Below are positions 2,839 to 62,419 of a DNA stretch of 64,000 nucleotides, in pieces; position 1 is the first letter of the stretch; each line of letters opens with the position of its first letter. The notes beneath the pieces are model-generated. The model worked only from the letters and a program-made list of their open reading frames with translations, did no database searches and was not told the DNA's origin. Made by a program: the position numbers and the translations under genes. The stretch covers positions 151,714,001 through 151,778,000 of the forward strand of contig OZ024743.1 in NCBI GenBank assembly GCA_964016885.1, given 5' to 3'. This DNA is from Eledone cirrhosa (taxonomy: Eukaryota).

Positions 2839-3565
2839 TCATCATTGTTTAATGCCTAGTTTCCATGTTTCCATGGGTTAGATGGCTTGTCACAATATGA
2901 GACAAGTCAGGTCAGGAGACCATGTCCTGCTCATATGGATATCTATTTTGGCATGGCTTCTATGGCTAGATGCCCTTCCTAGAACCAACCACATTACAGT
3001 ATGGATTGGGTGCTTTTTATTGTAGCACCAAAACGACCATCTAACAGAGTTGACTGGGTGCTTTTTGTTGTGTCAGCAGCATGACCACCTTACAGGGTGG
3101 ACTGCGTGATTTTTCACATGTCACCAGCATGACAACCACACAGGGTGAGCTGAGTGCTTTTTTGTTGTGTCACCAGCACGACCACCATTATGGGGTGAAC
3201 TCGGAGCTTTTTTGTTGTGTCACCAAGATGATCACCTTACAGGGTGGACTGGGCGCTCTTTTTGTCATGTCACTTGTACAACCACTTCACAGGGTGGGCT
3301 GAGTGCTTTTTTCATGTCACCAGCATGACCTCTATACAGGGGGAACTGGGAGTACCCTGTCATGTCACTAGCACTATCATCTTATCGGGTGCATTTGTAG
3401 CTGCTTTTTTTATGTTATTATGAACCCCTTACAAGATGGAATAGTTGTTTTTAATGTAGTTGTAATGCCAGATTGCCATACAAGGTGGACAAAGTGCCTT
3501 TTCTAATGGCAGCAGATTGTGGGAGGAGGAGCAGATTTGGAGCAAGTCCTTCTATATAGGTGTTG
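2839..3565 (-). mobile_element. RTE-related 3'-UTR fragment containing a ~49-bp tandem array of about 10 copies
   Basis: The reverse complement has the AGGAAGGGCATC...AACCCATG...GATGAT tail also seen at 6700-6860. The array unit GTCACCAGCATGACCACCTTACAGGGTGGACTGGGTGCTTTTTTGTTGT recurs at about 3072, 3120, 3169, 3219, 3269, 3316 and 3365. Confidence 0.65.
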
Positions 3566-3773: not shown

Positions 3774-4317
3774 ATATATATATATATATACATATACATT
3801 TAAATATATGTATACATACATACAACTTAAACTATTCCATTGATCATATAAATATGAGATTCTCTCATTGACCCATCATGAACTTACAAGAAGCAATTAC
3901 AACAAACATCATACACAATAAAACAAAGCATTAGTGGATCATACATCTAAACTATATAGGTTTCACTACAGAAATAGATGATTAATTATGGAAGCAGCAG
4001 AAGGTTGAACAAAATTCACAGTCAACATACACATGCCAGAAACAAAATAAACATGCAACTGATGACATTTAAATCTAAAAATAAAATCTCAAATTTCAAA
4101 TTACAGTGATAAAATGATAAAATCAACACAAATTCTGGTGATTAAGTCTACACAAATTCCATTAGGTTATTACACACATACTCAAAAAGCCCCCAACACT
4201 TCACATCTTGAACATAATCATGTTTTTAACACACACACATATACGTGTATGTATGTCTGCATGAGTAAATAAATAAATATATATATATATATATATTTCA
4301 TTATTATCATTGTTTAA

Positions 4318-4716
4318 GGGCGGTGGATTGGCAGTATTGGTAGAGGGTTGGACGCCATGCTTTTCAGCAAAGAGTTACGTCCCTTTATGGTCTGAGTTCA
4401 AATCTTGCCGAGGTTAACTTTGCCTTTCATCCTTACGGGGTCGATAAAATAAAGCACCAGTAATATACTGGGATAATTGCTGGCCTTGTGCCAAAAGTAG
4501 AAACAATTATTGTCATCGTTTATGGCGGTCGATTGGCAGTATTGGTAGAGGGTCGGACGCCATGCTTTGACGCATAGAGTTACGGCCCTTGCCATTCTGA
4601 GTTCAAATCCCGCGAAGGTTAACTTTGCCTTTCATCCTTACAGGGTCGATAAAATAAAGTACCAGTAATGCACTGGGTAATTGTTGGCCTTGTGCCAAAA
4701 AGTAGAACCAATTATT
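4318..4716 (+). mobile_element. Head-to-tail dimer of a tRNA-related SINE with a Deu/Nin-like central domain (4318-4511 and 4524-4716)
   Basis: Two ~195-bp copies, each with an A-box-like TGGCAGTATTGG, a B-box-like GAGTTCAAATC and the core GCCTTTCATCCTTACGGGGTCGATAAAATAAAGTACCAG. The Deu/Nin assignment is from memory of that core. Confidence 0.75.
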
Positions 4717-5028
4717 ATCATCGTTTAACATCTATCTTCCACGCTAGCATGGGTTAGACGGGTTTATCCTATTTAAGACAAGTTGGGTCGGGTGACTGTG
4801 TCTTGCTCATATAGGATTGTTTCTGGCTGGTTTTCTAATGCTGGATTCCCTTCCTAATGCCAACCACATTTAGAGTGTGTGCTATATATATATATATATA
4901 TTATATATATATATATATATATGTGTGTGTGCGTGTATGTATGTGTTGTTCGATATGCCAACAACCAGCAGGTAGCTACTCCTGTTCCCCCTGCCCCATA
5001 TCATTCTATCATTCTATTTCCATTTTGA

Positions 5029-6860
5029 CCTAGATGAAATGCAGTTCGGGTTTGTGTCAGGCAAAAGTACCACAGACGCTCTTTTCATAGTACGACAACT
5101 ACAGGAGAAGTACCTAGCTAAAGGTAAACCCCTCTACTTAGCTTTTGTCGACTTGGAGAAAGCCTTCGACTGGTGGGCTCTTAAAAAACTAGGCGTTGAC
5201 GAATGGCTTGTGAGGGCTATACAAGCCATGTATAAAGAAACAGTCAGCAAGGTTAGAATTAACAACGAATATAGTGAAGAGTTTAGCGTAAAAGTTGGCG
5301 TCCATCAGGGCTCTGTTCTCAGCCCCCTACTATTTATTATTGCCCTTCAGGCTATAACAGAGGAGTTCAAGACAGGCTGCCCATGGGAACTCCTATACGC
5401 AGACGACCTGACACTCATAGCGGAATCAATGGCCGAACTAGAGAAGAAATTCCAAACATGGAAGCACGGCCTAGAGTCAAAAGGACTTAAAATTAACCTG
5501 GCTAAGACCAAAGTTCTAGTTTGTAGGAAAGAAAACAAGGCGGCGATCCCTGCTGGGAAATGGTCGTGCTCGGTGTGTAGGAAAGGCGTAGGTAGAAACT
5601 CCATTTTATGTCCTAAATGCAAAGTATGGGTGCATAAAAGATGTAGTGGGATCACAGGTAAGCTAACTAAGAACATAGATTTTACATGTGGCCGGTGTTC
5701 TGGTGCAATAAGTAGCAGCAAGTGCCCACAAAATACTAGCTCTTTCAATTGCGCAGAGGGTTCTATAGAAATAGTGGACAGCTTCCGTTACCTGGGCGAT
5801 AAAATCAGCAGTGGGGGAGGGTGCTCTGAAAGTACTGTAGCTAGAGTCAGAACTGGTTGGAAAAAGTTCAGAGAGCTTATACCACTATTAGCTGCTAAAG
5901 GGTTCTCCCTAAAAATGAAAGGCAGGTTGTACGATGCCTGCATACGAACAGCAATGCTGCATGGCAGTGAGACCTGGGCATTGTGTGCAGAGGATATACG
6001 CAGACTAGAGAGGAACGAAGCTTGCATGCTCCGCTGGATGTGTAACAGTAATATACGTGAACGGCAAAGCATAAACGAACTAAGGAAAAAATTAGAGATA
6101 AGAGGGATCAGATGTTGTTTACTCGAGAGAAGGCTACGTTGGTATGGACACGTGATGCGCATGAAAGTCGATAGCTGTATAACAAAGTGCAGGGCAATAA
6201 AGATAGACGGTAGTCACGGAATAGGCAGACCTAGAAAAACCTGGGACGAGCTGATAAACTCCGACATCACACACTTACACCTCTCCAAGACAATGTCACT
6301 GGACCGAGACCTTTGGCGGTACTCAGTAACAGAGAAGACCCGCCTTACCTAAATATATAGTAAAACCTACTCCAGCCAGTAGGCATCTCTAACAAAATAC
6401 ACCCCGTCCCACCACCACCACCCCCACCCCATCCACACCACCCCGTTCTATGTAAAGTTATGTTGGTGCCGCGCCATCGAGGCCGAAACAAATGAGATCG
6501 TGTAGGTGTCACGACAAAAAAACACACAGTCCACGCTGTAATGTGGCCGTGTAGGCAACACGGTAAAAACCTCCCAGTCCCACACTGTAAACGTGGTTGG
6601 TGTTAGGAAGGGCATTCAACTGTAGAAAACCTGCCAGACAGTCCACGCTGTAATGTGGCCGTGTAGGCAACACGGTAAAAACCTCCCAGACCCACACTGT
6701 AAATGTGGTTGGTGTTAGGAAGGGCATCCAACTGTAGAAAACCTGCCAGACAGTCCTATGCGAGCAAGACAATCACTCTTGCCTCAAGTGGGACTACCCC
6801 CGTCCAAACCCATGCAAGCGTGGAACACGGACGTTAAACGTTGATGATGATGATGATGAT
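5029..6860 (+). mobile_element. 5'-truncated RTE-clade LINE, subfamily A, with a structured 3' UTR and (GAT)n tail
   Basis: The RT ORF 5039-6352 is followed by a ~500-bp 3' UTR containing a 112-bp direct duplication (6527 and 6639) and ending GGACGTTAAACGTTGATGATGAT. Confidence 0.92.
5039..6352 (+). CDS. RTE ORF2 fragment: reverse transcriptase, internal PHD finger and RTE C-terminal domain (endonuclease missing)
   Basis: Motifs QFGF, FVDLEKAFD, GVHQGSVLSPLLF, YADD, FRYLG, HGSETW, RLRWYGHVMRM and GRPRKTW. It has a 7-codon in-frame deletion (DRVPRSVIWW to DWW) relative to the 50231 copy. Confidence 0.9.
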   Translation: MQFGFVSGKSTTDALFIVRQLQEKYLAKGKPLYLAFVDLEKAFDWWALKKLGVDEWLVRAIQAMYKETVSKVRINNEYSEEFSVKVGVHQGSVLSPLLFIIALQAITEEFKTGCPWELLYADDLTLIAESMAELEKKFQTWKHGLESKGLKINLAKTKVLVCRKENKAAIPAGKWSCSVCRKGVGRNSILCPKCKVWVHKRCSGITGKLTKNIDFTCGRCSGAISSSKCPQNTSSFNCAEGSIEIVDSFRYLGDKISSGGGCSESTVARVRTGWKKFRELIPLLAAKGFSLKMKGRLYDACIRTAMLHGSETWALCAEDIRRLERNEACMLRWMCNSNIRERQSINELRKKLEIRGIRCCLLERRLRWYGHVMRMKVDSCITKCRAIKIDGSHGIGRPRKTWDELINSDITHLHLSKTMSLDRDLWRYSVTEKTRLT

Positions 6861-28136: not shown

Positions 28137-28540
28137 CATCATCATCATCATCATCATCATCATTTTACGTCTGCTTTTTCCCTGCTTGCAAGAGTGGGAC
28201 GGGAACTGATTCTGGCTTTATTTCTACAGCTGGATGCCCTTCCTAACACCAACCTCATTTACAGTGAGTGCTGGGTGCTTTTTCGTGGCGCCTACACGTC
28301 CACTTTACAGTGTGGGCTGGGTTCTTTTTTTTTTTTTTGCCGTGGCACCTCCACGACCACTTTGCAGTGGAATGATATGGACCCCAGTCCCTATCATCTC
28401 ATTTCTACAGCTGAGTAAACTGGAGCAATGTGAAATAAAGTGTCTTGCTCAAGGAAACAACACATCACCCGGTCTGAGAATTGAACTCACAACCTTTCGA
28501 TTGCAAAGCCAATGCTCTAACCACTAAGCCATGTGCCTCC
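28137..28540 (-). mobile_element. Full-length tRNA SINE with the RTE-B-derived 3' tail
   Basis: Reverse complement of 32672-33020, carrying one extra hairpin/pseudoknot module. Confidence 0.85.
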
Positions 28541-32335: not shown

Positions 32336-32671
32336 ACATTTTCTTTATACATGTACAATATTGGATTTTATTATAATGACCCTAAATAAACAAAATATTA
32401 TTTAGTGCCATAGAATCTGAATCAAAACATATGAAGTTTGTACTTTGTTACTAAACTCATGTTTTATAAAACATTCAAAGTTTAAAAAGAAAATAGAGCA
32501 CTTAAAAAAGAACAGTTTATTCAAGAGAGTATCACATATATGTTAAGTTTAATTACTTCTACTGTTATATATGTATCTAGTCAAGTAACTCATGTGAACT
32601 TTTAAGTATTCAATGTCAACAATATCTTTATTAACACAGAGTTCAATAAAATGAAGTAATTGTATCTAGAT

Positions 32672-33020
32672 GGAGGCACATGGCTTAGTGTTTAGAGCAT
32701 TGGTCTTGCAATCGAAAGGTTGTGAGTTCAATTCTCAGACCAGGTGATGTGTTGTTTCCTTGAGCAAGACACTTTATTTCACATTGCTCCAGTTTACTCA
32801 GCTGTAGAAATGAGATGATAGGGACTGGGGTCCATATCATACCACTGCAAAGTGGTCGTGGAGGTGCCACGACAAAAAAGCACCCAGCACTCACTGTAAA
32901 TGAGGTTGGTGTTAGGAAGGGCATCCAGCTGTAGAAATCAAGCCAGCATCAGTTCCCGTCCCACCCTTGCAAGCAGGGAAAAGCGGACGTAAAATGAATG
33001 ATGATGATGATGATGATGAT
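32672..33020 (+). mobile_element. Full-length tRNA-derived SINE with the RTE-B 3' tail
   Basis: A-box TGGCTTAGTG, B-box GAGTTCAATTC, core CCTTGAGCAAGACACTTTATTTCAC, tail CCCGTCCCACCCTTGCAAGCAGGGAAAAGCGGACGTAAAAT(GAT)n, and flanking ATCTAGA repeats. Confidence 0.88.
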
Positions 33021-33064
33021 CTAGAGTTTCCAGATGGCCAAGCACTTTTAAGTACCTTAATAAC

Positions 33065-33425
33065 ACTTGAAAGTCACAGCCAGTCAAGCTCTATCATGGA
33101 GTCTAATTACATCTGGAGGCTATGGATGGGCAAGCTCAATTAAGTAGCAGCAGCCTAATTACATCTGAAGGTGCTACAGTCAATCAAACCTTATTAAGTA
33201 ACCTAGTTACATCAGGAAGTCACAACTGACCAAGCTCTATTAACCTAATTACATCTAGTGGTCAGAGTCAGTTAAGCTCTATAAGTAACCAAATTACATC
33301 TGGAAATCAAAGTCAATGAAGCTTTGTTAAGGAACCTAATTTCATCTGGAAGTCACAAGTGACTAAGCTCAAGTATTCTAATTACAGATCGTCGAGTTCT
33401 ATTAAGGAAGCAAATCACATATGGC
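33065..33425 (+). repeat. Degenerate ~46-bp minisatellite, about 8 copies
   Basis: Recurring unit CTAATTACATCTGGAAGTCACA...CAAGCTCTATTAAGTAAC. Confidence 0.75.
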
Positions 33426-40009: not shown

Positions 40010-40310
40010 CTGAATCTCCATCGTAACTAGAAACGTCCATTTTCCATACTAGCATGGGTTAGACGGGTGTCCCATTAGAGATAAATTGGGTCAGGTGACC
40101 ATGTCTTGCTCAAATAGGATTATTTCTGGCTAGATGTCCTAACACCAACCACATTTACAGTGTGTGCTGAATGCTTTTTGTCGTAACTTCTAAATGAACA
40201 CTTTACAGCGTGGGCTAAGTGCTTTTTGTTGTGACACCTACACAACCAATTATTTTTTGAGGCAACATTTTGGTTAAAACAGATTGTGATGTCTATCAGT
40301 ATGTATGTGG

Positions 40311-40864: not shown

Positions 40865-41773
40865 TTCAAGTTAGATTTTCCTATACTGAATTAACAAAAT
40901 GATAAGAGGCCTATAATGAAAGAACACCCACCACCAATGTAATGTAAAGGATAATTATAATTATGACAATATTACTTAAAATTATCAGCAGTTAAACTTA
41001 CAAATGAATATATCTGAATAAAATTGAACATCTAAAAGGAAATGTAAAATGAAATACACAAGAAAATGAAAGAAGAGATGCAAGTAGTGACTCTAACATA
41101 TCAGTGCAGCAATGAGGAAACAAGCAAAAATGTTAAAGTATGTGAAATAAATTTTAAAGGAAGCTATATAAATAGGTGAGGATAACAAATAAAAGAAAAA
41201 GAGGATGGAAAGAAATAAGAAGGGAGAAGAGATAGAGAAAGAGAGAAAAGGGAGAAAAGAGGAAGAGACAGAGAAAAATCATGATGCAAAAACATCACAA
41301 GGTTTGTCAATAAAACAAGCACTAAATATACAATATAATATAACCTGTGACCTAGTACACAGCTTCTCCTATCACTATGTAGCAAGTGTTTGTGAAGAAC
41401 TACTTCAGAAATAAACCATTCTGAATATATGAAAAGACAGTAGTTTTGTAATGTAAAAAACCATTTAATGTTAAATAAGTGAAGATTTGTTTTTAGTTTG
41501 GTTTGTGTTATGGAGTAGATAATTTCACAAAGATTTGAATTTAGGTATAACAGTAAACAGTCCTTGTTAAACTATTTATGAAACAAATAGAAATACATTT
41601 AAAATTCAATATACCATATATTAAATGGTTTGTTTAAGTTACGGGTACCCCAAACTAATCAAGCTAGAAAGCTTCTTGTTTTCCCACCCAACTAATTTCA
41701 CCCAACAGCCCAGCCACATAACTTACTATATTTCTCTCTCCCTCCCTCCCCCTCTCTCTCTATCTATCTATCT

Positions 41774-43730
41774 TTGGCCAAGGTGTTAGCAGCGAGGCTG
41801 GCGCTTGTCATCGGGAACCTGATAGGCGAAGCGCAAACGTGTGCAATCCCGATCAGGTCCATACACGACAACCTCCACCTTATGCGATACATCATAGAGA
41901 GGGTTGGGTGTAAACCTGGCTTCGGTGGAGCTCTGATCAATTTAGATCAGCCTAAGGCATTTGATAGGAGCGACCATCAATACTTGGAAGTGGTTCTCAA
42001 GGCAGTCAGCTTTGGTCCCGTCTTCAGAGGCTGGATCGCTGCCATGCACACCAGCATCTGCTCGGCTCAAGGTGAATGGCTACCTATCGGAGCCATTCCA
42101 AATCATGCGTTCCATCCGTCAAGTGTGCCCTCTCTCCTCCATTCTGTATGTACTGACTCACGAGCCATTACTGCGGAAGTTGGAGCTGTTGCAGGGCATC
42201 CCGATTGAACCAGGACTGCAGAAAGCAGTGTCAGGCTATGCTGACGACATAACCGTAATGGTGTCGAAAACCTCGGACATCGGAGTAATCAGCAACCTAT
42301 TACAGAAATACGAAACGTTGACAGGAGCAAGACTAAACCCAAACAAGTCTGTTGGTTTGCAACTCAGCACATGGAGAGGCAAACCCATGCCTTCCGACAG
42401 TGTCGTTGGACGCTGGACAGAAGGACCGGTGAAATTGCTTGAGGTCTAGTTTGGTCCAGACCTCCAGGTGGACAAGTACTAGAACGAGGTCACGGCGAAG
42501 GTGTTTGCACTCACCCAGAAGTGGGCTGAGTGCAAACTCAGGTCGAGCAGAGGTGGCGAACACTTACATAGCGTCCGTCATCTGCTACTGCTTGACAGTC
42601 GTGCCTTGTCCCTCGTGAATACCTCACTAAAATGGAACGCCTACTCTTCAAGTTCCTCTGGAAGAAACAAGCTCCATTGGTGAGGAGATCCATCTGCTGT
42701 CAACACCCTTCTAACAGAGGACTGGGCATGCCTTGATGATGCACAAACATGCGCTGAGGCTACGCCATCTCCAGGTATTCCTGACCAGCGAACTGGTGTG
42801 ACTGTCGTTTGTGAGACAAGCTCTTCCACAACTCGTCTCACTAACAGAACTGCAGTCCTGGGTCAAGCAAAGACCGAAAATGGGCGTCTGGCACATCAAG
42901 TGCCTTTAGGCGCTCACAGCCCTCTACCAAGTGGAAACGGCAATCAGCAGAGACTCCACTTCGACATTCTATAGGGGATTAGTGGAGGATAAGTGCGACG
43001 ACGTTCTCAGGGAAACTCTAGGCATCAAGGAAGACGAACTGAGCAGTTTGTTTGAGAGGATTTTCCGTCCAGGGCCTATGGATAACTTCCAGAGGTCTCT
43101 GGCCTTGCAGTGCTACCGGGGAGCTCTACTAGTTCGAGACAAAATCTACAGGCATGGATGCCCTGGCAGAGATGCTGCCAAAAAGACCTGTCCAAGATGC
43201 GAGCAGGACATCAAAACCATTCTGCACACAATTGTTCAGTGCCCAGGGGCGACCGACCTATGGAATTATGTCGAACAGCTACTGCCACATGTGGGACGCA
43301 TCCAGTTGTCAGCTGAGTCCATCGTGAGGATCACCCTGCCGCTTTCATTTAAGAATGAAGGAGAGGCAGTCTTCCTCTGTCTGATGGCTATGGCGAAAGA
43401 GGTTAAAAGAACTGAGGGCAAGCACCTTTCTCTCCAAACAACAACTCATCCCCTTCTTTAAGTACCGCTTCAGAAGGAAGGTGAGAGTAGAGAGAGAGGT
43501 GCTACACCCCAGTAAATTCTCTGAAAGGTGGGTGAATGGGCCTTCACTGTATATAAACCTGTAGGTTGAGGAAGATAAACAGAGGGAAGACGGGAACACC
43601 TACAAAACGTGTTCCTGGTGTTGAGGGTTGTTCTATCCATGGGGTATAAAACAACCCCGCAATAGCGTTACCCCCCCCCCCTAATGGGGATTTCAATTGT
43701 TTTATTTTTATATAGTTTATTGTTATTTAT
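41774..43730 (+). mobile_element. 5'-truncated, frameshifted Tx1/L1-clade LINE (RT and C-terminal CCHC zinc knuckle)
   Basis: LAKVLAARL..QTCAIP.RSIHDNL, LDQ.KAFDR.DH.YL, RQ.CPLS, YADDIT, GARLN..KS and CPRCEQDIKTILHTIVQC are spread over several frames. Both flanks are (TC)-rich. Confidence 0.85.
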
Positions 43731-46149: not shown

Positions 46150-47590
46150 TGTTGTATGGACTGGGAATCGAGTTCACAACCTCATTGTTGTGTGGATTGT
46201 TGGATTTCTATTCAACTTGCACATGCTCGCACATTTGCATATGGATCACGTGACCTGGGTGGTCAGTCAGCGTTGGTGTTAAAAACTCGGTCACAGACTG
46301 CCACTGACTTACTTTATGTTATTCTGCTACTGCGAGGAGGGGCGTTTTGGTTGTTTCACAAATTACACAAATTATTTGATATAACTCGTGTTTTCTCTGC
46401 GAGTACCGAGAGGAATACAACAGAGTTTATTGGCGTCGCCGATAGGATTTAACTACATTGCCGATAGGATTTACCTACATTGCCGGGAAATTGTTTATCA
46501 CAAAAACATGGCGGAACAACAAACAGCGGAGCTAATAAAGTTGTTTAAAGAACAGATGGAACAACAAATGCAACAACACAAGAAAGATATGGACACTCTG
46601 ATAAAACTGTTTGGTGCTCGAGATTCTGAACAACAGAGTTTATTGGCGTCGCCAGTTGCTTCGACACCAACAGCATTCATCCCACGATTTGCTGCTTTTG
46701 ATTCAACAACAGAACTATGGTCAAGATTCTGCACGTTTGTGGCTGCTAACGCTGTACCCGAGCAATGCCTAGCACAAGTGTTCCTGACTAATCAGACGGC
46801 TGCTATCTACAAACAACTTGCAAATCTGGCTGCTCAACAAAATCCGCCTAAGAATATCAACAAGTTGACAATGGACGAAATTGTTGACTTCATGAAAGAA
46901 CAGTTCGACCCAAAACTTTTCATTGTGAGAGAACGTTTCAAGTTCTGGAGTGACATGCGACGGAAGCCAGGCGAAACTCTCCAGGAGCTGGCAGCACGTA
47001 TACGTCAGGATGCAGCTACCTGTGATTTTCCTTCGATCACAAATCCACAAGATGAAGCTCTAAGACAGAGATTTATATGTTCTGTCAATAATGAAGTTGT
47101 GTTGAAGGCTATTTTCAAGATCAAGGATACAGAACTAGATTTCGCCCGTGCTGACCAAGTTGCCATCGGGACCGAAGACGCAGCAAAGGTTGCTAAGGAA
47201 ACTGTTTACGGTTCCAAAACCAAGCAACTCGAAGACGGTCCAAGAGAACTCGTAAACCCTCAGAGAGACTTTGCTGTTGATGCTTCTTTTGTCGCATCAA
47301 TTTCGGTGGGGAGGTGTTGTATGGACTGGGAATCGAGCTCACAACCTCATTGTTGTGTGGACTGTTGGATTTCTATTCAACTTGCACGTGCTCGCACATT
47401 TGCATATGGATCACGTGACCTGGGCGGTCAGTCAGTGTTGGTGTTAAAAACTCGGTCACAGACTGCCACTGACTTACTTTATGTTATTCTGCTACTGCGA
47501 GGAGGGGCGTTTTGGTTGTTTCACAAATTACACAAATTATTTGATATAACTCGTTGTGTTTTCTCTGCGAGTACCGAGAGGAATACAACA
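46150..47590 (+). mobile_element. Gag-only Ty3/gypsy (Mag-like) LTR retrotransposon, 1441 bp
   Basis: LTRs at 46150-46422 and 47315-47590 (TGTTGTA...TACAACA) differ by about 5 transitions and one 3-bp indel. 5-bp TSD ATATT, PBS at 46431-46448, PPT GGTGGGGAGG before the 3' LTR, and no pol motifs. Confidence 0.93.
46431..46448 (+). promoter_or_regulatory. Primer binding site, probably for tRNA-Ser
   Basis: The complement of TGGCGTCGCCGATAGGAT reads AT-CCTAT-CGGCGAC-G-CCA: T-stem, acceptor strand, G discriminator and CCA. Confidence 0.75.
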
Positions 47591-47701
47591 ATATTAAAGT
47601 TTGAAGAGGATTTTATTCATAATAACAGTTTTATATTTCTACTACAACACTTTATAACACTAGTAATTTCAACTCTTCTTGAAATGTATTCCCTTGACTA
47701 G
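46508..47701 (+). CDS. Mag-like Gag ORF, open through the 3' LTR into flanking DNA
   Basis: MAEQQTAELIKLFKEQ coiled coil, F.AFD...ELW..F.TF..AN.V, and ERFKFWSDMRRKPGETLQELAARIRQDAATCDF..ALRQRFICSVNNE (capsid region). Gag similarity ends at about 47225. Confidence 0.8.
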   Translation: MAEQQTAELIKLFKEQMEQQMQQHKKDMDTLIKLFGARDSEQQSLLASPVASTPTAFIPRFAAFDSTTELWSRFCTFVAANAVPEQCLAQVFLTNQTAAIYKQLANLAAQQNPPKNINKLTMDEIVDFMKEQFDPKLFIVRERFKFWSDMRRKPGETLQELAARIRQDAATCDFPSITNPQDEALRQRFICSVNNEVVLKAIFKIKDTELDFARADQVAIGTEDAAKVAKETVYGSKTKQLEDGPRELVNPQRDFAVDASFVASISVGRCCMDWESSSQPHCCVDCWISIQLARARTFAYGSRDLGGQSVLVLKTRSQTATDLLYVILLLRGGAFWLFHKLHKLFDITRCVFSASTERNTTILKFEEDFIHNNSFIFLLQHFITLVISTLLEMYSLD

Positions 47702-49651: not shown

Positions 49652-51902
49652 AAATTTAAGAAAGCCCTTCAAGATGTGTATGACAAAAAAAAGACGATTT
49701 AGAGACGTATGACATAGATAATAACTGGAATTTCTTATGTGACAACTTACTGCAGGCTACTGATGAAACTTGTGGCTGGAGCAGAGCTCCAGCCAGACAG
49801 AGAGTGACCTGGTGGTGGAACAGCACAGTAGATAAGGCCATTAGAGTCAAAAGACTAGCATGGAAGGATTGAGAAAAGGGTGGGTGTAGGGAAGAATATA
49901 CAGCCGCTAAGAGAGAAGCTAGACATCAGGTGTACTTAGCATGCAGGGAGGCTGAGAGTAGGAGGTTTGCCAATGTTCTGCGACGGGAAGATCAGAGGCG
50001 TGCAGTGTTCCACATTGCAAGGCAGTGTGTCAATGGATGTTGTTGGAGATAAATGTGTCCGGGATGATGCCGGTGTACTTAGTGTCACGAATGATCAGAA
50101 AAAGGAGGCCTGGAAATGTCATTATGAGAGACTGATGAATGTGGAGAACGAATGGGAGAGAGAGAAATTACCCTCAGTAGATCCGACAGAGTGACCAGCT
50201 ATTGAAATTGACGAATATAGGGTCCAAGCGGTGATAAAGGAAATGAAAAATGGTAAGGCTGCTGGACCATCGGGAATAGTTGCTGAGATGCTGAAGGCAT
50301 TAGGGGACGTAGGCACTAAAATGGTTGCATGCATCATCAATCAGGCTATATATGGTGGTGTCATACCCAAAGACTGGTGCAGCAGTATTCTCATAAATTG
50401 CTACAAAGGTAAAGGGGATGCTCTGGAGAGGAGCAATTATAGGGGTATAAAACTGATGGATCAGGTTATGAAAGTGGCAGAAAGGATATTAGCACTACTA
50501 ATTAGAGAAAGGGTCAAACTAGATGAGATGCAGTTTGGTTTTGTGCCTGGGAAGAGTACAACAGATGCCCTCTTCTTGGTGAGACAATTGCAAGAGAGGT
50601 TCTTAGAGAAAAATAAGCCACTATACTTAGCCTTTGTTGACCTAGAGAAGGCTTTTGATAGGGTACCCCGATCTGTCATCTGGTGGTCCCTAAGGAAACT
50701 AGGTGTTGAGGAATGGCTTGTGAGGACAGTGCAAACTTTGTACAGAGGTACTCTCAGTAAAGTCAAGGTAGGAATGGAGTTTAGTGAGGAATTACAGATA
50801 CAAGTAGGAGTACATCAAGGTTCGGTCCTCAACCCGCTCTTGTTCATTATAGTCCTCCAAGCCATAACAGAGGAGTTTAAGACTGGCTGTCCATGGGAAC
50901 TTCTCTATGCTGACGATCTTGTTCTTATAGCAGAATCAGTAGAGGAGCTAGAGAATAAATTCTGGCTTTGGAAACAGCAGTTGGAAGCAAGAGGACTGAG
51001 AGTGAATCTAGCTAAGACAAAAGTGTTGATGAGTAGCAAAGAGGACAAAACTCTGATTCCGTCAGGGAAATGGCCATGTTCGATATGCAGAAAAGGAACT
51101 GGCATAAATTCTATAAAATGCACACAATGCAGATCCTGGGTACACAAGAGATGTAGCGGGATAGCAGGCAAACTAACAGGTAGGGAGAAATATGTATGCA
51201 GTAGATGTACAGGGAAATTAGACAGTAGATGTCGCATTGATAGACACATTTTTCAAATGCAGGTGGGTGCTATAGAAGTGGTGGATAGCTTCCGGTACCT
51301 AGGAGATCAGATTAGCATGGGAGGGGGGGTTTTCCGAGGCCATAGTATCTAGAATAAGGACAGGTTGGAAGATGTTTAGGGAGCTGCTTCCTCTGCTGAC
51401 GAAGAAGGGTTTCTCCCTGCATATGAAAGGCCGGTTATATGATGCCTGTGTGAGGAACGCGATGCTGCATAGTAGTGAGACATGGGCAGCAACTGCAGAG
51501 GATATGCGACAGCTGGAGAGAAATTAAGCAAGTATGCTCCATTGGATGTGCAGTGTCAATGTGCGTAAACGACCCAGCATGAATGTGTTGAGAGAGAAAC
51601 TGTGTCTGAGAGGGATAGAATGCAGTGTACGGGAGAGGAGACTGAGGTAGTATGGACATGTGATGCACACGGAGGATGACCGATGGGTGAAGAAGTGCCA
51701 GGAAATGCCAGTTGAAGGAAGACATGGTAGAGGTAGACCACGAAAAACATGGTCGGAGGTCGTGAGAACAGACCTCAGATCGCTGAAGCTCACGGTGGAG
51801 ATGACAAAGGACCATGACAAGTGGAGAGATGCTATGCTGAATAAGACCCGTCCCACCCTTGCAAGCAGGGAAAAGCGGACGTAAAATGATGATGATGATG
51901 AT
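49652..51902 (+). mobile_element. 5'-truncated RTE LINE, subfamily B, inactivated by frameshifts and stops
   Basis: TWWWN linker, then ORF 50231-51352 (GKAAGPSG, YKGKGD..NYRGIKL, QFGF, YADD, PHD finger, FRYLG). A frameshift falls in a G-run at about 51325 and the C-terminus reads GRPRKTW. Short tail ...GCGGACGTAAAAT(GAT)n, flanked by (TA)n/(CA)n. Confidence 0.93.
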
Positions 51903-52403: not shown

Positions 52404-52691
52404 TGGTTAGAGCATTGGCCTTGCAATCGAAAGGTTGTGAGTTCAGTTCTCAGACCGGGTGGTGTGTTGTTTCCTTGAGCAAGACACTTTATTTCACATT
52501 GCTCCAGTTTACTCAGCTATAGAAATGAGATGATAGGGACTGGGGTCCCTATCATTCCACTGCCACGGCAAAAAAGCACCCAGCACTCACTGTAAATGAG
52601 GTTGGTGTTAGGAAGGGCATCCAGCTGTAGAAAAATCAAGCCAGAATCAGTTCCCGTCCCACCCTTGCAAGCAGGGAAAAGCAGACGTAAA

Positions 52692-52725
<34 letters not shown>
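52404..52725 (+). mobile_element. Slightly 5'-truncated tRNA SINE with the RTE-B tail
   Basis: Near-identical to 32690-33020. Confidence 0.85.
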
Positions 52726-57844: not shown

Positions 57845-58052
57845 CAGCACTCACTGTAAATGAGGTTGGTGTTAGGAAGGGCATCCAGCTGTAGAAATCA
57901 AGCCAGAATAAGTTCCTGTATGAGCAAGGCATGGTCAGCCGACCAGACACTGCCCACAACAGGACAACCCGTCTAACCCATGCTAGCGTGGAAGAACGGA
58001 CATAAAACGGTGATGATGATGATGATGATATATATATATATATGTATATGTG

Positions 58053-58769: not shown

Positions 58770-60218
58770 CTGGCTCTTAGAAAACTAGGAGTAGATGAAT
58801 GGGAGCACTCAGCAAAGTCAGGATTAGCAATGAGTATAGCGAGGAATTTAGTGTACAGGTTGGTGTCCACCAGGGCTGTTCTTAGCCCTCTCACGTTCAT
58901 CATAGTCCTGCAGGCAATAACGGAGGAGTTTAAGACTGGATACTTATGGGAACTCCTGTATGCAGATGACCTCGCACTTATAGCTGAATCTGTGGTAGAA
59001 CTAGAGAAGAAATTCCAAACTTGGAAGCAGGGACTAGAAAGAAAGGGTCTCAAAGTCAACCTGACAAAGACTAAGATCCTTGTAAGTAGACGAGAAAACA
59101 GAACCCAGATCCCCTCAGGGAAATGGCCTTGCTCAGTATGTAGGAAAGGTGTAGGTAGGAACTCCATTCTCTGCCCTAAATGCAAACAATGGGTACACAA
59201 GAGATGTAGCGGGATCTCAGGAAGCTTAATTAAGAATGTAGGCTTCACATGTAGCAGCTGTGCTGGGACAGCAAGCAGCAAACAGCCACAGGAAACAATC
59301 TCTGAGAGGGCTCTGTAGAAACAGTAGACAGCTTCTGCTACTTAGGTGACCGAATTAGCAGTTGAGGTGGGTGTTCAGAAAGTACAATAACTAGGGTAAG
59401 AATGGGTTGGAAGAAGTTCAGGGATCTACTGCCACCGCTAGCTGCAAAAGGCTTTTCCATCAAAATGAAAAGCAGACTGTATGATGCATGTATACGAACA
59501 GCAATGTTACATGGTACTGAGACCTGGGCGCTGTTTGTGGAAGACTTGTGTAGATTAGAAAGAAACGAAGCCTGCATGCTCCGATTGATGTGTAATAGTA
59601 ATATACGCGAATGGCAAAGCATTAACGAATTGAGAGAGAGACTGAGCATAAGAGGAATAATCAAATGCTGTGTGCAGGAGAGGCGGTTGTGTTGGTATGG
59701 ACATGTGATGCGTATGAAGGATGACAGCTGCATAAAAATCTGCAGACCACTAGAAGTTGATGGAAGCTGCGAAGTGGGGAGATCTAAGAAGACCTAGGAT
59801 GAGGTGATAAAGCCGACCTTACCCAATTACACCTCTCAAAGGTGATGACACACGACCGTGACCTCTGGCGTCACGCAGTAATACAGAAGACCCAACCCCC
59901 CATGGGTACAAGCCGAAGCTGAAGCATATAGACAATATGCCCCCACACCCTCCCACTGCAAAGTGGTCGTGGAGGTGCCACAGCAAAAAAAGCACCCAGC
60001 CCACACAGTAAAGTGGATGTGTAAGCGCCACGGAAAAAAAGCACCCAGCACTCACTGTAAATGAGGTTGGTGTTAGGAGGGGCATCCAGCTGTAGAAATC
60101 AAGCCAAAATCAGTTCCTGTATGAGCAAGGTATGGTCAGCCGGCTTGCTACTGCCCACAACAGGACAACCCATCTAACCCATGGTAGCGTGGAAGAACGG
60201 ATGTAAAATGGTGATGAT
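58768..60218 (+). mobile_element. RTE subfamily A 5'-truncated decayed copy with a structured 3' UTR
   Basis: YADD, PHD finger, HGTETW and WYGHVMRM. The 3' UTR has two pseudoknot modules and a (GAT)n tail. Flanked by (TA)n. Confidence 0.9.
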
Positions 60219-60252
60219 GTATGTATATATATATACAGTATATGTATGTATT

Positions 60253-60305: not shown

Positions 60306-62419
60306 TTACGACTCAGTGAAGAACTATTCGACCAGTAAAATGAGGATGAATCATTAGCCAGAAATAGAAGCAACTAACACCCCATCAAAAGGTAGAAATA
60401 AAATCCTGGACGAATTCTGTGAACACATCACAAACTTCCCTTACCAACACTTGCACAGACAAAAACACAAGCCAAACCTCAACAAGAAAGAATGGGAAGA
60501 ATTAAATTGATTAAAAACCGACAGGACCATTACAATTAAAGAGGCTGATAAAGGGAGTACAGTAGTCCTAATGGAGACAGAATTCTATATCAACTTAGCG
60601 CTCTCCACTTTGGAAAACGAAACATACTACGAAAAGGCTGAACACTACAATGAACAGAAAATTATGAGAAACCTAAAAATTCTGATCAACCAATACAAAG
60701 AAGGACTCACTAACAAGGAATTCAGCTTCATCACAGACTTCACAAGTAAATCCAGCCTTTTCTACGGTATCCCTAAAGTACATAAAAGCGAATTAATAAG
60801 TAAGGCATGCAAGGAAGCCACAGACAGTCATCAATGTCCCCTCACCCAATGATCTCAAATTAAGACCTATAATAGCAGGCCCCGCTTGCGAAACCCACCG
60901 CCTTAGCAACTTCATTGATACCCTTCTCAAGCCTTTTCTCAAACACATCAATAGCTATATAAGGGACGACCTAGATATGCTCAAACACCTCCCTAATATG
61001 CCCGTTTCTGAACAAACCCTACTAGTGACGTTCGATGTAGTCAACCTATACTCCAACATCACCCCACAACCTAGGAATAGAAATATCCAATTCTGGCTGG
61101 ATAATTACCGCAATGAACTCCCACAACGCATCAAAAAAGAATTCGTGATAGAGGGACTCAAATTTATCTTGGAGAACAATTACTTCGTTTTCAATAACAA
61201 ATCCTACAGGCAGAAATCTGGGACCGCTATGGGAACGAAAACAGCCCCCACTTATGCCAACCTAGTCATGGGATACCTGGAAATCACCCTCTACACTAAA
61301 GTACTAAACAAATTTGGAAACACTCTCCACTTACACATAGAAAAAAACTGGAAGCGATATCTAGATGATTGCTTCATCCTTTGGCACGAAAACATCGAGA
61401 AACTTAAAGAATTTCACACCCTTATAAATGGGCTCAACACGAATATTAACTTTACGATGGAATACCGCCATCAACAACTCCCCTTCCTCGACATCCTCAT
61501 TAAGATTCATAACAAAAAAATAGAAACAGACATATACTACAAGCCCACAGACTCCAAGCAATATCTTCCTTTCAACTCTTGCCACCCTAGACACGTTAAA
61601 ATTAATATTCCCTACAACTTAGCCAAGAGAATCTGTACTATAGTCTCCAATAAAAACACCTGTTACTTACGGCTACAAGAACTAAAGGACACACTCATAG
61701 GTAGGGACTACCCTGCATCACTAATTGACAATGGAATCCAACGTGCCCTAAAACACAGTACCCAGGACCTTAGACACCCTAAAGTAAATCAACTGAAACT
61801 AAAAGCTCTTCCATACATCTCCATACACAACCCCTTCAACAATGAGGCCTTTGACACCATCCTCCAGAACATCCCTGTGTTAAAAAAGGACCATAGAATG
61901 AACCAAATCCTTCGAACACACGATATCATAAAGAGCAAAAGACAATCTAAGTAAATTAAAAACATCCTAACACATGCCAAAGTACTGCCAACCACAACAA
62001 CGAAACCCACAGTAAAAAAATGCGATAGACCCAACTGTGGCATATGCATTAACCTAATAGAGGGTTCGGAATTCTATTTCAAAGAAAGACAACGTTTTAT
62101 AGTAAAACACAATTTCACATGCGCATCAGAAAATCTGATATATGTATTAACTTGCTCAGGTTGTCGAGAACAATACATAGGCCAGACCAAAAACAGCCTC
62201 CGCCAACGCATGACTGTCCATAGATCCCAAATTAAAATATGGGAATACAGGAAAATACCACTGAGTGGACACATTGATACCTGTGCCGCCAAAAATCATC
62301 CCAACTTTAGAATCTTTCCCCTCTACAAATTTAAAGATAATGCCACCCACACCCAGCGCATCAGCAAGGAATCTCACTTTATTAACAAATACGGACCCCG
62401 TCTAAACACTTCTCCCTAA
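60302..62419 (+). mobile_element. Penelope-like retroelement (RT and C-terminal GIY-YIG), 5'-truncated and disrupted
   Basis: IKEADKGSTVV, FYGIPKVHK, RPIIAG, FDVVNLYSNI, GTAMGTKTAPTYANL, RYLDD, LPFLDI, YYKPTD, CDRPNCGIC and NLIYVLTCSGCREQYIGQT..LRQR..H. It has a frameshift at about 60830 and an in-frame TAA at 61952. The non-coding 3' part may extend to about 63430. Confidence 0.93.

What the first reader, a model, noticed from the sequence alone, without database searches (positions are those of the whole stretch)
32842..32905. Recurrent hairpin plus H-type pseudoknot module in RTE and SINE 3' regions, with compensatory changes
Seen: GTCGTG-GA-GGTGC-CACGAC-AAAAAA-GCACC at 32855-32884 can fold as a classic H-type pseudoknot (S1 GTCGTG/CACGAC, S2 GGTGC/GCACC, A-rich loop). 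It sits between small CCAC..TG(T/C)AAA..GTGG-type hairpins. Other copies keep the pairing while changing sequence: TCGTG/CACGA with GTGT/ACAC (6498-6527), GCCGTGT/ACACGGT with AGG/CCT (6546 and 6658), and GTCATG/CATGAC with GGTG/CACC (2990-3400, minus). More copies lie at 28270-28365(-), 52560-52580 and 59966-60045. It occurs downstream of the RTE-A stop codon and inside SINEs. Inference: this is a selected RNA structure in elements ending in (GAT)n rather than poly(A). It could act as an RT-recognition, stability or translation element, loosely analogous to the tandem pseudoknot domain in tobamovirus 3' UTRs. I do not know of a description of it.
Basis: partly seen in the sequence, partly recalled or inferred. 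Interest (0 to 1): 0.75.

Follow-up and report, generated by a model that had tools for sequence, protein, structure and literature searches.

The report
Pseudoknot chain in RTE retrotransposon RNAs
A 48-base unit present tens of thousands of times in this animal's jumping genes is predicted to fold into a small RNA knot plus hairpin, sits at the front of one element family and at the back of two others, and likely helps these RNAs engage ribosomes, although neither the fold nor that role has been tested and the changes between copies support the second stem only weakly.

Summary
The 11-pair pseudoknot at 32855-32884 is really there: it is the only such fold in the window, and 0 of 300 shuffles reach it. 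It lies in a young tRNA-headed SINE and is one link of a chain: CORE-like knot, GNRA hairpin, this knot, hairpin, second knot, RTE tail. The unit has at least 76,915 genomic copies. It sits in the 3' UTR of two RTE families but in the 5' UTR of a third, whose 3' end (18 of 18) lacks it, so it is not the reverse-transcriptase priming signal. The claimed compensatory changes are weak: no pair is significant in a tree-aware test, stem 2 breaks more often than it is kept between subfamilies, and one cited change is CpG decay. Support comes from outside: two distant RTE leaders hold a knot of the same shape in the same slot, and in three the next knot ends 8-13 bases before the in-frame AUG. Best reading (0.4): a relocatable RTE-leader module that engages ribosomes. 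The scan already reported this module on at least five other pieces of this genome and in one other genome; I found no paper on it.

The parts
32671..33018 (+). Young tRNA-headed SINE that holds the flagged unit; flanked by a 7-bp direct repeat ATCTAGA at 32664-32670 and 33019-33025 (likely target-site duplication)
   Evidence: 30 of 30 best genome matches lie in the same SINE body, one being the window itself
32681..32738 (+). tRNA-derived head
   Evidence: Rfam tRNA 27.9 bits, E 8.7e-4, below the gathering score of 29; ARAGORN finds no tRNA gene
32754..32814 (+). CORE-like body, predicted H-type knot (S1 32754-58/32768-72, 4 of 5 pairs; S2 GAGCAA 32762-67/TTGCTC 32784-89, 6 pairs), then CAG and a CTCA/TGAG hairpin
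   Evidence: pairing read from the sequence; older copies have a perfect S1; CORE identity by eye against supplement text
32815..32840 (+). 10-pair spacer hairpin
   Evidence: in the minimum-energy fold
32841..32856 (+). Hairpin with GCAA (GNRA) tetraloop; closing pair T-A in the SINE, C-G in an RTE-C subfamily
   Evidence: T-A/GCAA 33, C-G/GCAA 12, T-G/GCAA 4, T-A/GTAA 60 of 134 hairpins
32855..32884 (+). The flagged predicted H-type pseudoknot (PK-A): S1 6 pairs, S2 5 pairs, A6 loop
   Evidence: S1 pair probabilities 0.54-0.95 in the whole SINE RNA
32885..32904 (+). Conserved CAG linker and CTCA-CTGTAAA-TGAG hairpin
   Evidence: pair probabilities 0.88-1.0
32904..32944 (+). Widely conserved 'anchor' (GGAAGGGCATCC core), predicted second knot PK-B; only three S2 pairs in this SINE
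32955..33020 (+). RTE-B-type 3' tail with CCTTGC-AA-GCAGGG hairpin region and (GAT)n
   Evidence: same tail follows the RTE-B ORF directly
4976..6860 (+). 5'-truncated RTE-A LINE: RT ORF to 6352, then 3' UTR with PK-A units at 6496-6546, 6543-6591, 6655-6705 and two anchors (112-nt duplication)
   Evidence: RVT_1 E 5.6e-23
2989..3379 (-). Decayed tandem array of eight 48-nt units ahead of an anchor and tail
28137..28535 (-). Second SINE copy with two units (28256-28360)
40152..40248 (-).
49654..51902 (+). 5'-truncated RTE-B LINE whose ORF runs straight into the tail with no module; full-length relatives carry the module in the 5' UTR
52405..52725 (+). SINE copy with an internal deletion at about 52560 that removes the 5' half of PK-A
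57845..57900 (+). 5'-truncated copy that begins at the CAG right after S2
59366..60220 (+). RTE-C LINE fragment with two units (59963-60063) and an anchor in its 3' UTR

Best explanation
The flagged stretch is one unit of a chain of hairpins and predicted H-type pseudoknots that lies in the 5' UTR of one RTE family, in the 3' UTR of two others and in the body of an RTE-tailed SINE, and that likely came from the RTE leader and likely engages the host ribosome. Shown: the positions, the copy numbers, the pairing potential, and that in three distant RTE elements the last knot ends 8-13 bases before the in-frame AUG. Inferred: (1) the RNA folds as knot-CAG-hairpin-knot; (2) in a leader the chain places a ribosome on the start codon of an RNA that may lack a cap; (3) after a leader-plus-tail fragment was appended behind the ORF of RTE-A and RTE-C, the same fold works from the 3' end, as a translation enhancer of an RNA ending in (GAT)n; (4) the non-coding SINE keeps it to sit on ribosomes and pick up newly made RTE protein, while its 45-nt tail does the priming. 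The last knot (anchor, PK-B) is likely the core; the flagged PK-A is likely an accessory, partly redundant link.
For: Position: module and anchor precede the ORF in 10 of 13 RTE-B copies that reach the N-terminus, the other 3 being 5'-truncated; RTE-A and RTE-C have no anchor within 1.5 kb before the endonuclease start in 0 of 9 hits and carry it about 3.2 kb downstream in 5, and after the stop in 30 of 30 RTE-A loci. Each of the three families has the block at one end only. Distant elements from metagenome contigs: anchor upstream of an RTE-type endonuclease frame with an in-frame ATG 10, 13 and 8 nt after the predicted S2 strand in L235, L275, L315. A knot of PK-A geometry fills the same slot in L235 (changed S1 letters, 3 of 200 shuffles) and L315 (1 of 200). 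PK-B S2 partner found in 14 of 25 hand-picked family representatives against 6.1 expected. Eleven hand-picked unit types: 80.9% of cells paired against 76.4% (1 of 500 shuffles), three pairs with two-sided change (32 of 500), slid controls 29-62%. Contigs from four other coded organisms align over the RTE-B-type unit with listed differences only in the loop, the outer S1 end, the first S2 base and the hairpin. Kojima 2018 reports that a conserved RTE 5' UTR domain also occurs in Ingi and R4 elements, which points to a host partner rather than one RT; tandem 3' knots replace poly(A) in TMV and the HCV IRES knot binds 40S near the AUG.
Against: No function was tested. No proposed pair is significant in the tree-aware test (best E about 32, 141 distinct units). 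Between the five main types, stem changes keep pairing 7 times and break it 8 times (S1 6:2, S2 1:6), against 30:50 for private mutations. The second RTE-A unit (13 elements) has a broken S2. In the whole-SINE fold the 3' strand of S2 pairs instead with the 5' arm of the anchor (unpaired probability 0.01-0.33). 6 of 8 distant loci scanned show no PK-A-like knot. In RTE-B the ATG lies about 44 nt after PK-B, not about 10, and the largest distant family (118 of 148 loci clustered) lacks the PK-B S2 partner in its representative. The ATG after the anchor in the 3' UTR copies is not kept in one frame. The tree does not resolve whether 5' or 3' is ancestral among the three families.
Confidence: 0.4

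Rival explanations
1. The chain is a position-independent handle for the RTE protein itself (RNP assembly), like the pseudoknot-hinge-stem of vertebrate R2 3' UTRs, and has no direct ribosome role.
For: Each family has the block once, at either end; the non-coding SINE keeps it in 25,377 intact-length copies against 320 with deletions; R2 protein binds a 3' UTR pseudoknot and compensatory changes restore activity; RTE-dependent SINEs commonly keep a 5' UTR piece as well as the tail.
Against: It ends 114 nt before the (GAT)n in the SINE and is absent from 18 of 18 RTE-B 3' ends; the short fixed distance to the AUG in three distant elements is not explained; similar knots appear, by eye, in CORE bodies of SINEs that use other LINE partners.
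Confidence: 0.25
2. Only the hairpins form; PK-A stem 2 is incidental, and the unit spread as a passenger of successful elements and as a 48-bp minisatellite.
For: No significant covariation; S2 kept once and broken six times between main types; rival nested helix; arrays of 27, 54 and more than 70 listed units that decay freely; one cited change is CpG decay.
Against: 11-pair geometry not reached by 300 shuffles; same geometry in the same slot in L235 and L315 with different letters; the junction base takes all four letters across types and pairs with one of its two possible partners in 8 of 8 types that I listed (noticed after the fact).
Confidence: 0.25
3. The compact knots are barriers to exonucleases and stabilise uncapped, non-polyadenylated element RNA.
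For: Tandem compact folds at either end of the RNA; the HDV-like fold protects R2 template RNA; some truncated copies begin right after S2 (7 of 30 events at two positions, hand count).
Against: The truncation tally is confounded by microhomology and has a larger peak elsewhere (10 of 30); genomic truncations reflect RT stops, not RNA 5' ends; the link to the AUG is unexplained.
Confidence: 0.1

Closest known systems
Bipartite RTE-derived SINEs and the conserved RTE 5' UTR domain (Kojima 2018, PMC5786205; parts 1-4 of the main section, supplement part 3 and two supplement searches read; Kojima 2020, PMC7245038, passages)
   Same: tRNA head + CORE-like body + piece found in an RTE 5' UTR + RTE 3' tail; tail exchange between families; domain repeated in some elements.
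   Different: The motif here has 0 matches in that supplement; the paper proposes no RNA structure for the domain and suggests binding of a transcriptional regulator; autonomous elements carrying the leader block behind their ORF are not described in the parts I read.
CORE-SINE superfamily (MIR, Ther-1, octopus OR1/OR2; PMC4824008 and PMC4758252, passages)
   Same: Central body after the tRNA head resembles CORE; by eye the CORE sequences printed in the Kojima supplement can form the same knot-CAG-hairpin order with changed but pairing letters.
   Different: No pseudoknot is mentioned in PMC4824008 (0 occurrences); PK-A has a short A-rich loop and different letters; identity with OR1/OR2 could not be tested.
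Vertebrate R2 3' UTR pseudoknot-hinge-stem (PMC11601368, passages)
   Same: A pseudoknot in a non-LTR retrotransposon UTR followed by a linker and a stem.
   Different: R2's fold is single, within the last 65 nt and bound by the protein; this one is repeated, mobile between ends and absent from RTE-B 3' ends.
Tobamovirus upstream pseudoknot domain (bioRxiv 10.1101/2025.10.12.681957, passages)
   Same: Several small knots in a row behind a stop codon in an RNA without poly(A); unequal importance of the links.
   Different: TMV knots stack directly and precede a tRNA-like structure; here hairpins separate them, no tRNA-like 3' end exists, and the block also sits in leaders.
HCV-type IRES pseudoknot (review PMC7178104, passages) and HDV-like ribozyme leaders of R2/RTE/L1Tc (review PMC6765202, passages)
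   Same: A knot shortly before the AUG; cap-independent start proposed for these retrotransposon leaders.
   Different: No domain II/III equivalent; no Rfam ribozyme or IRES match.

Membership tests
Bipartite RTE-derived tRNA-SINE | tRNA-derived head | tested here: met
   Rfam tRNA 32681-32738, E 8.7e-4, just under the gathering score
Bipartite RTE-derived tRNA-SINE | Body related to an RTE 5' UTR | tested here: met
   Unit and anchor in the RTE-B 5' UTR in 10 of 13 copies; the SINE's letters are closest to the RTE-C 3' UTR copy
Bipartite RTE-derived tRNA-SINE | 3' tail shared with an RTE LINE, microsatellite end, target-site duplication | tested here: met
   Same tail in 18 of 18 RTE-B ends; 7-bp flanking repeat
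Kojima's conserved RTE 5' UTR / Ceph domain | Sequence match to the published domain | tested here: not met
   0 matches of the anchor core or the PK-A 3' strand in the supplement text; figures could not be seen
CORE-SINE | About 60-bp CORE domain alignable to MIR | tested here: inconclusive
   Resemblance read by eye from supplement text; no alignment to a CORE consensus was run
Conserved RNA pseudoknot | Two crossing stems with sterically usual loops, beyond chance | tested here: met
   11 pairs, 0 of 300 shuffles
Conserved RNA pseudoknot | Significant covariation in both stems | tested here: not met
   No pair significant in 141 distinct units; weak signal in 11 hand-picked types; power is low because few lineages differ
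Conserved RNA pseudoknot | Fold shown by probing | not testable with these tools
   needs SHAPE/DMS
R2-type 3' UTR recognition pseudoknot | Sits next to the primed 3' end in every mobile family | tested here: not met
   114 nt from the repeat in the SINE; absent from 18 of 18 RTE-B ends
R2-type 3' UTR recognition pseudoknot | Bound by the element protein | not testable with these tools
   needs binding or structure
Tobamovirus UPD | Directly stacked knots ahead of a tRNA-like 3' end | tested here: not met
   Hairpins between knots; no tRNA-like or Rfam match at the 3' end
Tobamovirus UPD | Replaces poly(A) in translation | not testable with these tools
   needs reporters
Small self-cleaving ribozymes (HDV-like, pistol, twister) | Match to a ribozyme model | tested here: not met
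   No Rfam match in the window or in 10 related loci

The most novel reading that the evidence does not exclude
The RTE leader domain, this unit and the CORE domain of CORE-SINEs (MIR and relatives) are one ancient class of knot-CAG-hairpin RNA module that recruits ribosomes from any position; this would explain why SINE bodies have been conserved across animal phyla and across different LINE partners, and why RTE-dependent SINEs need a 5' UTR piece as well as the tail.
Probability: 0.25. Interest if true: 0.85.

Novelty: new variant of a known kind. Interest (0 to 1): 0.5.

Why it matters
Why SINE bodies such as CORE stay conserved, and why RTE-dependent SINEs carry a piece of the RTE leader, are open questions with only guesses in print (Kojima 2018). 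A concrete 30-50 nt fold with named base pairs makes both testable with a few mutants. RTE elements are also being developed as gene-insertion tools whose UTRs are optimised by screening, so a defined leader module would be useful. If PK-A stem 2 is not real, the flagged unit is an ordinary repeat piece and only the anchor deserves attention.

Tried and rejected
Rfam: 0 matches at gathering score in the window; only the tRNA head in 32600-33050; only simple-repeat noise and one weak tRNA in 10 related loci. Pistol, twister and HDV-like ribozyme considered from recall and dropped: the loop between S1 and S2 is six A with no inserted stems, and there is no Rfam match. Tree-aware G-test with my own R-scape-like null (60 simulations): nothing significant except two adjacent columns, an alignment artefact. 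5' truncation points as a record of RT stops: hand count of about 30 events from the first 100 rows gave 7 at the two positions right after S2, 10 in the next hairpin arm; microhomology with TA/TG repeats confounds it, so not used. Deletion forms: 320 against 25,377 intact-length; 76 of the first 100 listed share one precise deletion between two GCAAA words (hand count); 20 of them fetched carry both alleles of subfamily sites, like 30 intact copies, so they recur independently, but this cannot show selection because few copies ever become masters. Sequencing runs: no RNA holder listed; all laid runs were contigs. Viral contigs: 26 short anchor matches without the flanking motif, read as chance, 0 PK-A matches, no RTE endonuclease relatives. 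The sequence-only PK-A profile gave no hit below E 0.2 in 147 plus 40 overlapping outside loci; L235 scored E 0.37 and L353 E 0.23. GNRA frequency in the downstream hairpin (264 of 301) is biased by how I collected the units and is not used. Endonuclease tree: 3' versus 5' placement unresolved (62/86). Literature searches (listings and abstract starts only, except the papers named) found no description of this fold; subscription papers (Ohshima and Okada 1994, Akasaki 2010, Gilbert and Labuda 1999, Ruminski 2011), figures, Repbase, Dfam and SINEBase could not be seen and may bear on novelty.

Full report
What is there. The flagged letters pair as stated: S1 32855-32860 with 32868-32873, S2 32863-32867 with 32880-32884, loops of 2, 0 and 6 nt. 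A sequence-blind scan for A-loop H-type knots with at least 10 Watson-Crick pairs finds only this site on either strand of the 64 kb window, and 0 of 300 dinucleotide shuffles of the surrounding 331 nt reach 10 pairs. The site lies in a SINE at 32671-33018 with a tRNA-like head, a 7-bp flanking repeat and a (GAT)n end; 30 of the 30 best genome matches fetched lie in the same SINE body, one being the window itself. The host genome is 3.0 Gb; that it is octopus-like is my recall from its repeats, not a tool result.

Anatomy. Read 5' to 3', the SINE body is: a CORE-like segment that can form a knot (S2 six pairs) followed by CAG and a hairpin; a spacer hairpin; a GCAA-tetraloop hairpin; the flagged knot (PK-A); CAG and a CTGTAAA hairpin; a conserved 'anchor' that can form a second knot (PK-B); and a 45-nt RTE tail. 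The repeating unit is therefore knot-CAG-hairpin, 48 nt. A sequence-only profile finds 461 units in 157 elements in 1.254 Mb (window plus 119 loci of 10 kb, some chosen in dense regions; reversed control 0), 170 of them in 890 kb of evenly spaced loci. One exact pattern for the PK-A core has 76,915 genome matches and a pattern for older types 11,215, both with control 0 (the two overlap). The unit also expands into minisatellite arrays of 27, 54 and more units.

Where it sits in LINEs. RTE-A carries two units and the anchor after its stop codon in 30 of 30 loci (one is the window, two overlap), with the last 112 nt repeated 1-4 times. RTE-C does the same. Neither shows the anchor within 1.5 kb before the endonuclease start (0 of 9 hits). 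RTE-B is the reverse: 18 of 18 3' ends in the sample run from the ORF straight into the tail, while unit, hairpin and anchor lie 71-78 nt before the ATG in 10 of 13 copies that reach the N-terminus, the other three being truncated. The SINE has RTE-C-like unit letters and mostly the RTE-B tail, sometimes the RTE-C tail. So the module is not tied to (GAT)n ends and is not the priming signal. A tree of 11 endonuclease fragments does not settle which end is ancestral among the three families.

Covariation inside the genome is weak. On 141 distinct units, aligned without structure, no proposed pair is significant against a tree-based null (best E about 32); power is low because most differences are post-insertion decay. 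Among four master sequences (identical in 31, 14, 13 and 11 independent elements) and the majority of 31 older strings, S1 is paired in 26 of 28 cells and S2 in 19 of 25; changes keep pairing 6:2 in S1 but 1:6 in S2, against 30:50 for private mutations. Real two-sided changes are few: T-A to C-G at the second S1 pair, C-G to T-A at the inner S2 pair, and T-A to C-G closing the GCAA loop (33 versus 12 of 134 hairpins). The base at the S1/S2 junction takes all four letters and pairs with one of two partners in 8 of 8 types, which I noticed after the fact. Eleven hand-picked types, two from outside the genome, give 80.9% paired cells (1 of 500 shuffles), three two-sided pairs (32 of 500) and slid controls of 29-62%; relatedness and my choice inflate this. 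A rival nested helix takes the 3' strand of S2 in the computed fold of the whole SINE (the program cannot form knots).

Outside the genome. The anchor has 121 matches in metagenome contigs (scan stopped at its limit) and 14 in prokaryote bins, most with the full flanking motif and so likely eukaryotic contaminants. In the three metagenome loci where an RTE-type endonuclease frame follows (L235, L275, L315), an in-frame ATG lies 10, 13 and 8 nt after the predicted S2 strand of PK-B. The S2 partner of PK-B is found in 14 of 25 hand-picked family representatives against 6.1 expected, mostly at offsets 8-11; the loop strand was fixed by my search pattern, so this is conservation, not covariation. 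The largest outside family lacks it. In the slot ahead of hairpin and anchor, L235 has a PK-A with changed S1 letters (3 of 200 shuffles) and L315 an 11-pair knot (1 of 200); six other loci scanned have none, though L353 shows a decayed PK-A with a CTGTAA hairpin and L364/L257 a CORE-like segment in that slot (by eye). Contigs from four other coded organisms align across the RTE-B-type unit (3, 15, 18 and 25 contigs), with listed differences outside the S1 core and the 5' strand of S2; three of four runs hold hundreds of anchor contigs. These show presence only.

By-eye comparison with published sequences. In the Kojima 2018 supplement text, CORE segments can form the same order of knot, CAG and hairpin with different pairing letters: S2 GGGCA/TGCCT in MIR1_AMi, WALLSI2 and THER1, GGACA/TGTCC in MIR_Xt, GGGA/TCCC in SepiaSINE and OegopSINE, against GAGCAA/TTGCTC here; S1 GTGAC/GTCAC, ATACC/GGTAT, ATGCC/GGCAT. 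Vertebrate RTE leader pieces there (SINE2-1_EC, Bov-B, MonoRep87A) can also be drawn as knots, the first two about 10-12 nt before an ATG. This is six CORE sequences out of a supplement of which I read one part of 15 plus search passages; it was not computed and is a lead.

How it most likely works. The fold has to work at either end of the RNA and in a non-coding SINE, and its last link keeps a short distance to the AUG in distant leaders. A host partner fits that better than the RT: I put 0.4 on ribosome engagement (start-codon placement in leaders, enhancer from the 3' end, hitch-hiking by the SINE), 0.25 on a handle for the RTE protein, 0.25 on PK-A stem 2 being incidental, and 0.1 on a nuclease barrier. 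Precedents are analogies: R2 3' UTR knot bound by R2 protein, TMV knots replacing poly(A) and touching uS7, the HCV IRES knot on 40S, IRES-like activity proposed for ribozyme leaders of non-LTR elements, and SRP9/14-dependent Alu mobilisation.

Known or new. The element is a bipartite RTE-type tRNA-SINE, a known kind. The structure has no Rfam match and I found no description in eight searches, but older subscription papers, figures, Repbase and Dfam were out of reach. The scan's own notes already describe this module on at least five other pieces of this genome and in another genome; they gave me the CORE and start-codon leads and are not independent support. Verdict: real feature, plausible but unproven fold, new variant of a known kind, interest 0.5.

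Noticed in passing
G000 genome-wide; L366-L385: A precise 25-nt deletion between two GCAAA words removes the S1 hairpin in about three quarters of 320 deleted SINE copies and recurs on all subfamily backgrounds, which would fit RT jumping across a folded stem.
   Followed up: partly
G000:C1:12057972-12064371; L166, L035, L105: The 48-nt unit expands into minisatellite arrays (more than 70 listed matches in 6.4 kb; 54, 27 and 21 units in other loci).
   Followed up: partly
window 5570-5700 and 51080-51210 (inside the RTE-A and RTE-B ORFs): Both RTE proteins carry a PHD-type finger right after the RT domain (Pfam PF00628, E 1.6e-5 and 2.2e-6).
   Followed up: no
L105, L152, L113, L161 (5' ends of RTE-A and RTE-C): These families have long 5' UTRs with CCAAT words, tandem duplications and an AAGATGGCC word near the start (YY1/initiator-like from recall), unlike the RTE-B leader.
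   Followed up: no
L305, L255, L315, L206 family: Upstream of the anchor lies a small stem with a TAAAAGG/TAAGAGG loop that recalls the 3' part of HDV-like ribozymes; Rfam gave no match at E up to 1.
   Followed up: partly
L352-L364 (genome contigs): Several prokaryote MAG contigs hold the animal-type anchor with SINE-like context, likely eukaryotic contamination of the bins.
   Followed up: no
window 6352-6440: After its stop codon RTE-A keeps short words resembling the start of the RTE-B tail, as if an older tail was overwritten by the appended block.
   Followed up: no
window 60800-62419: RT ORF (weak RVT_1) followed by a frame with a GIY-YIG-like motif, Penelope-like from recall.
   Followed up: no
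window 46385-47701 and 41696-43461: A gag-like open frame without Pfam match, and fragments of another LINE-type RT; observed only.
   Followed up: no
window 4300-4727: Tandem pair (205-nt period) of a different tRNA-headed SINE without the module.
   Followed up: no
window 33154-33360: Decayed 45-nt tandem repeat of 4.5 copies just downstream of the SINE, unrelated to the module.
   Followed up: no
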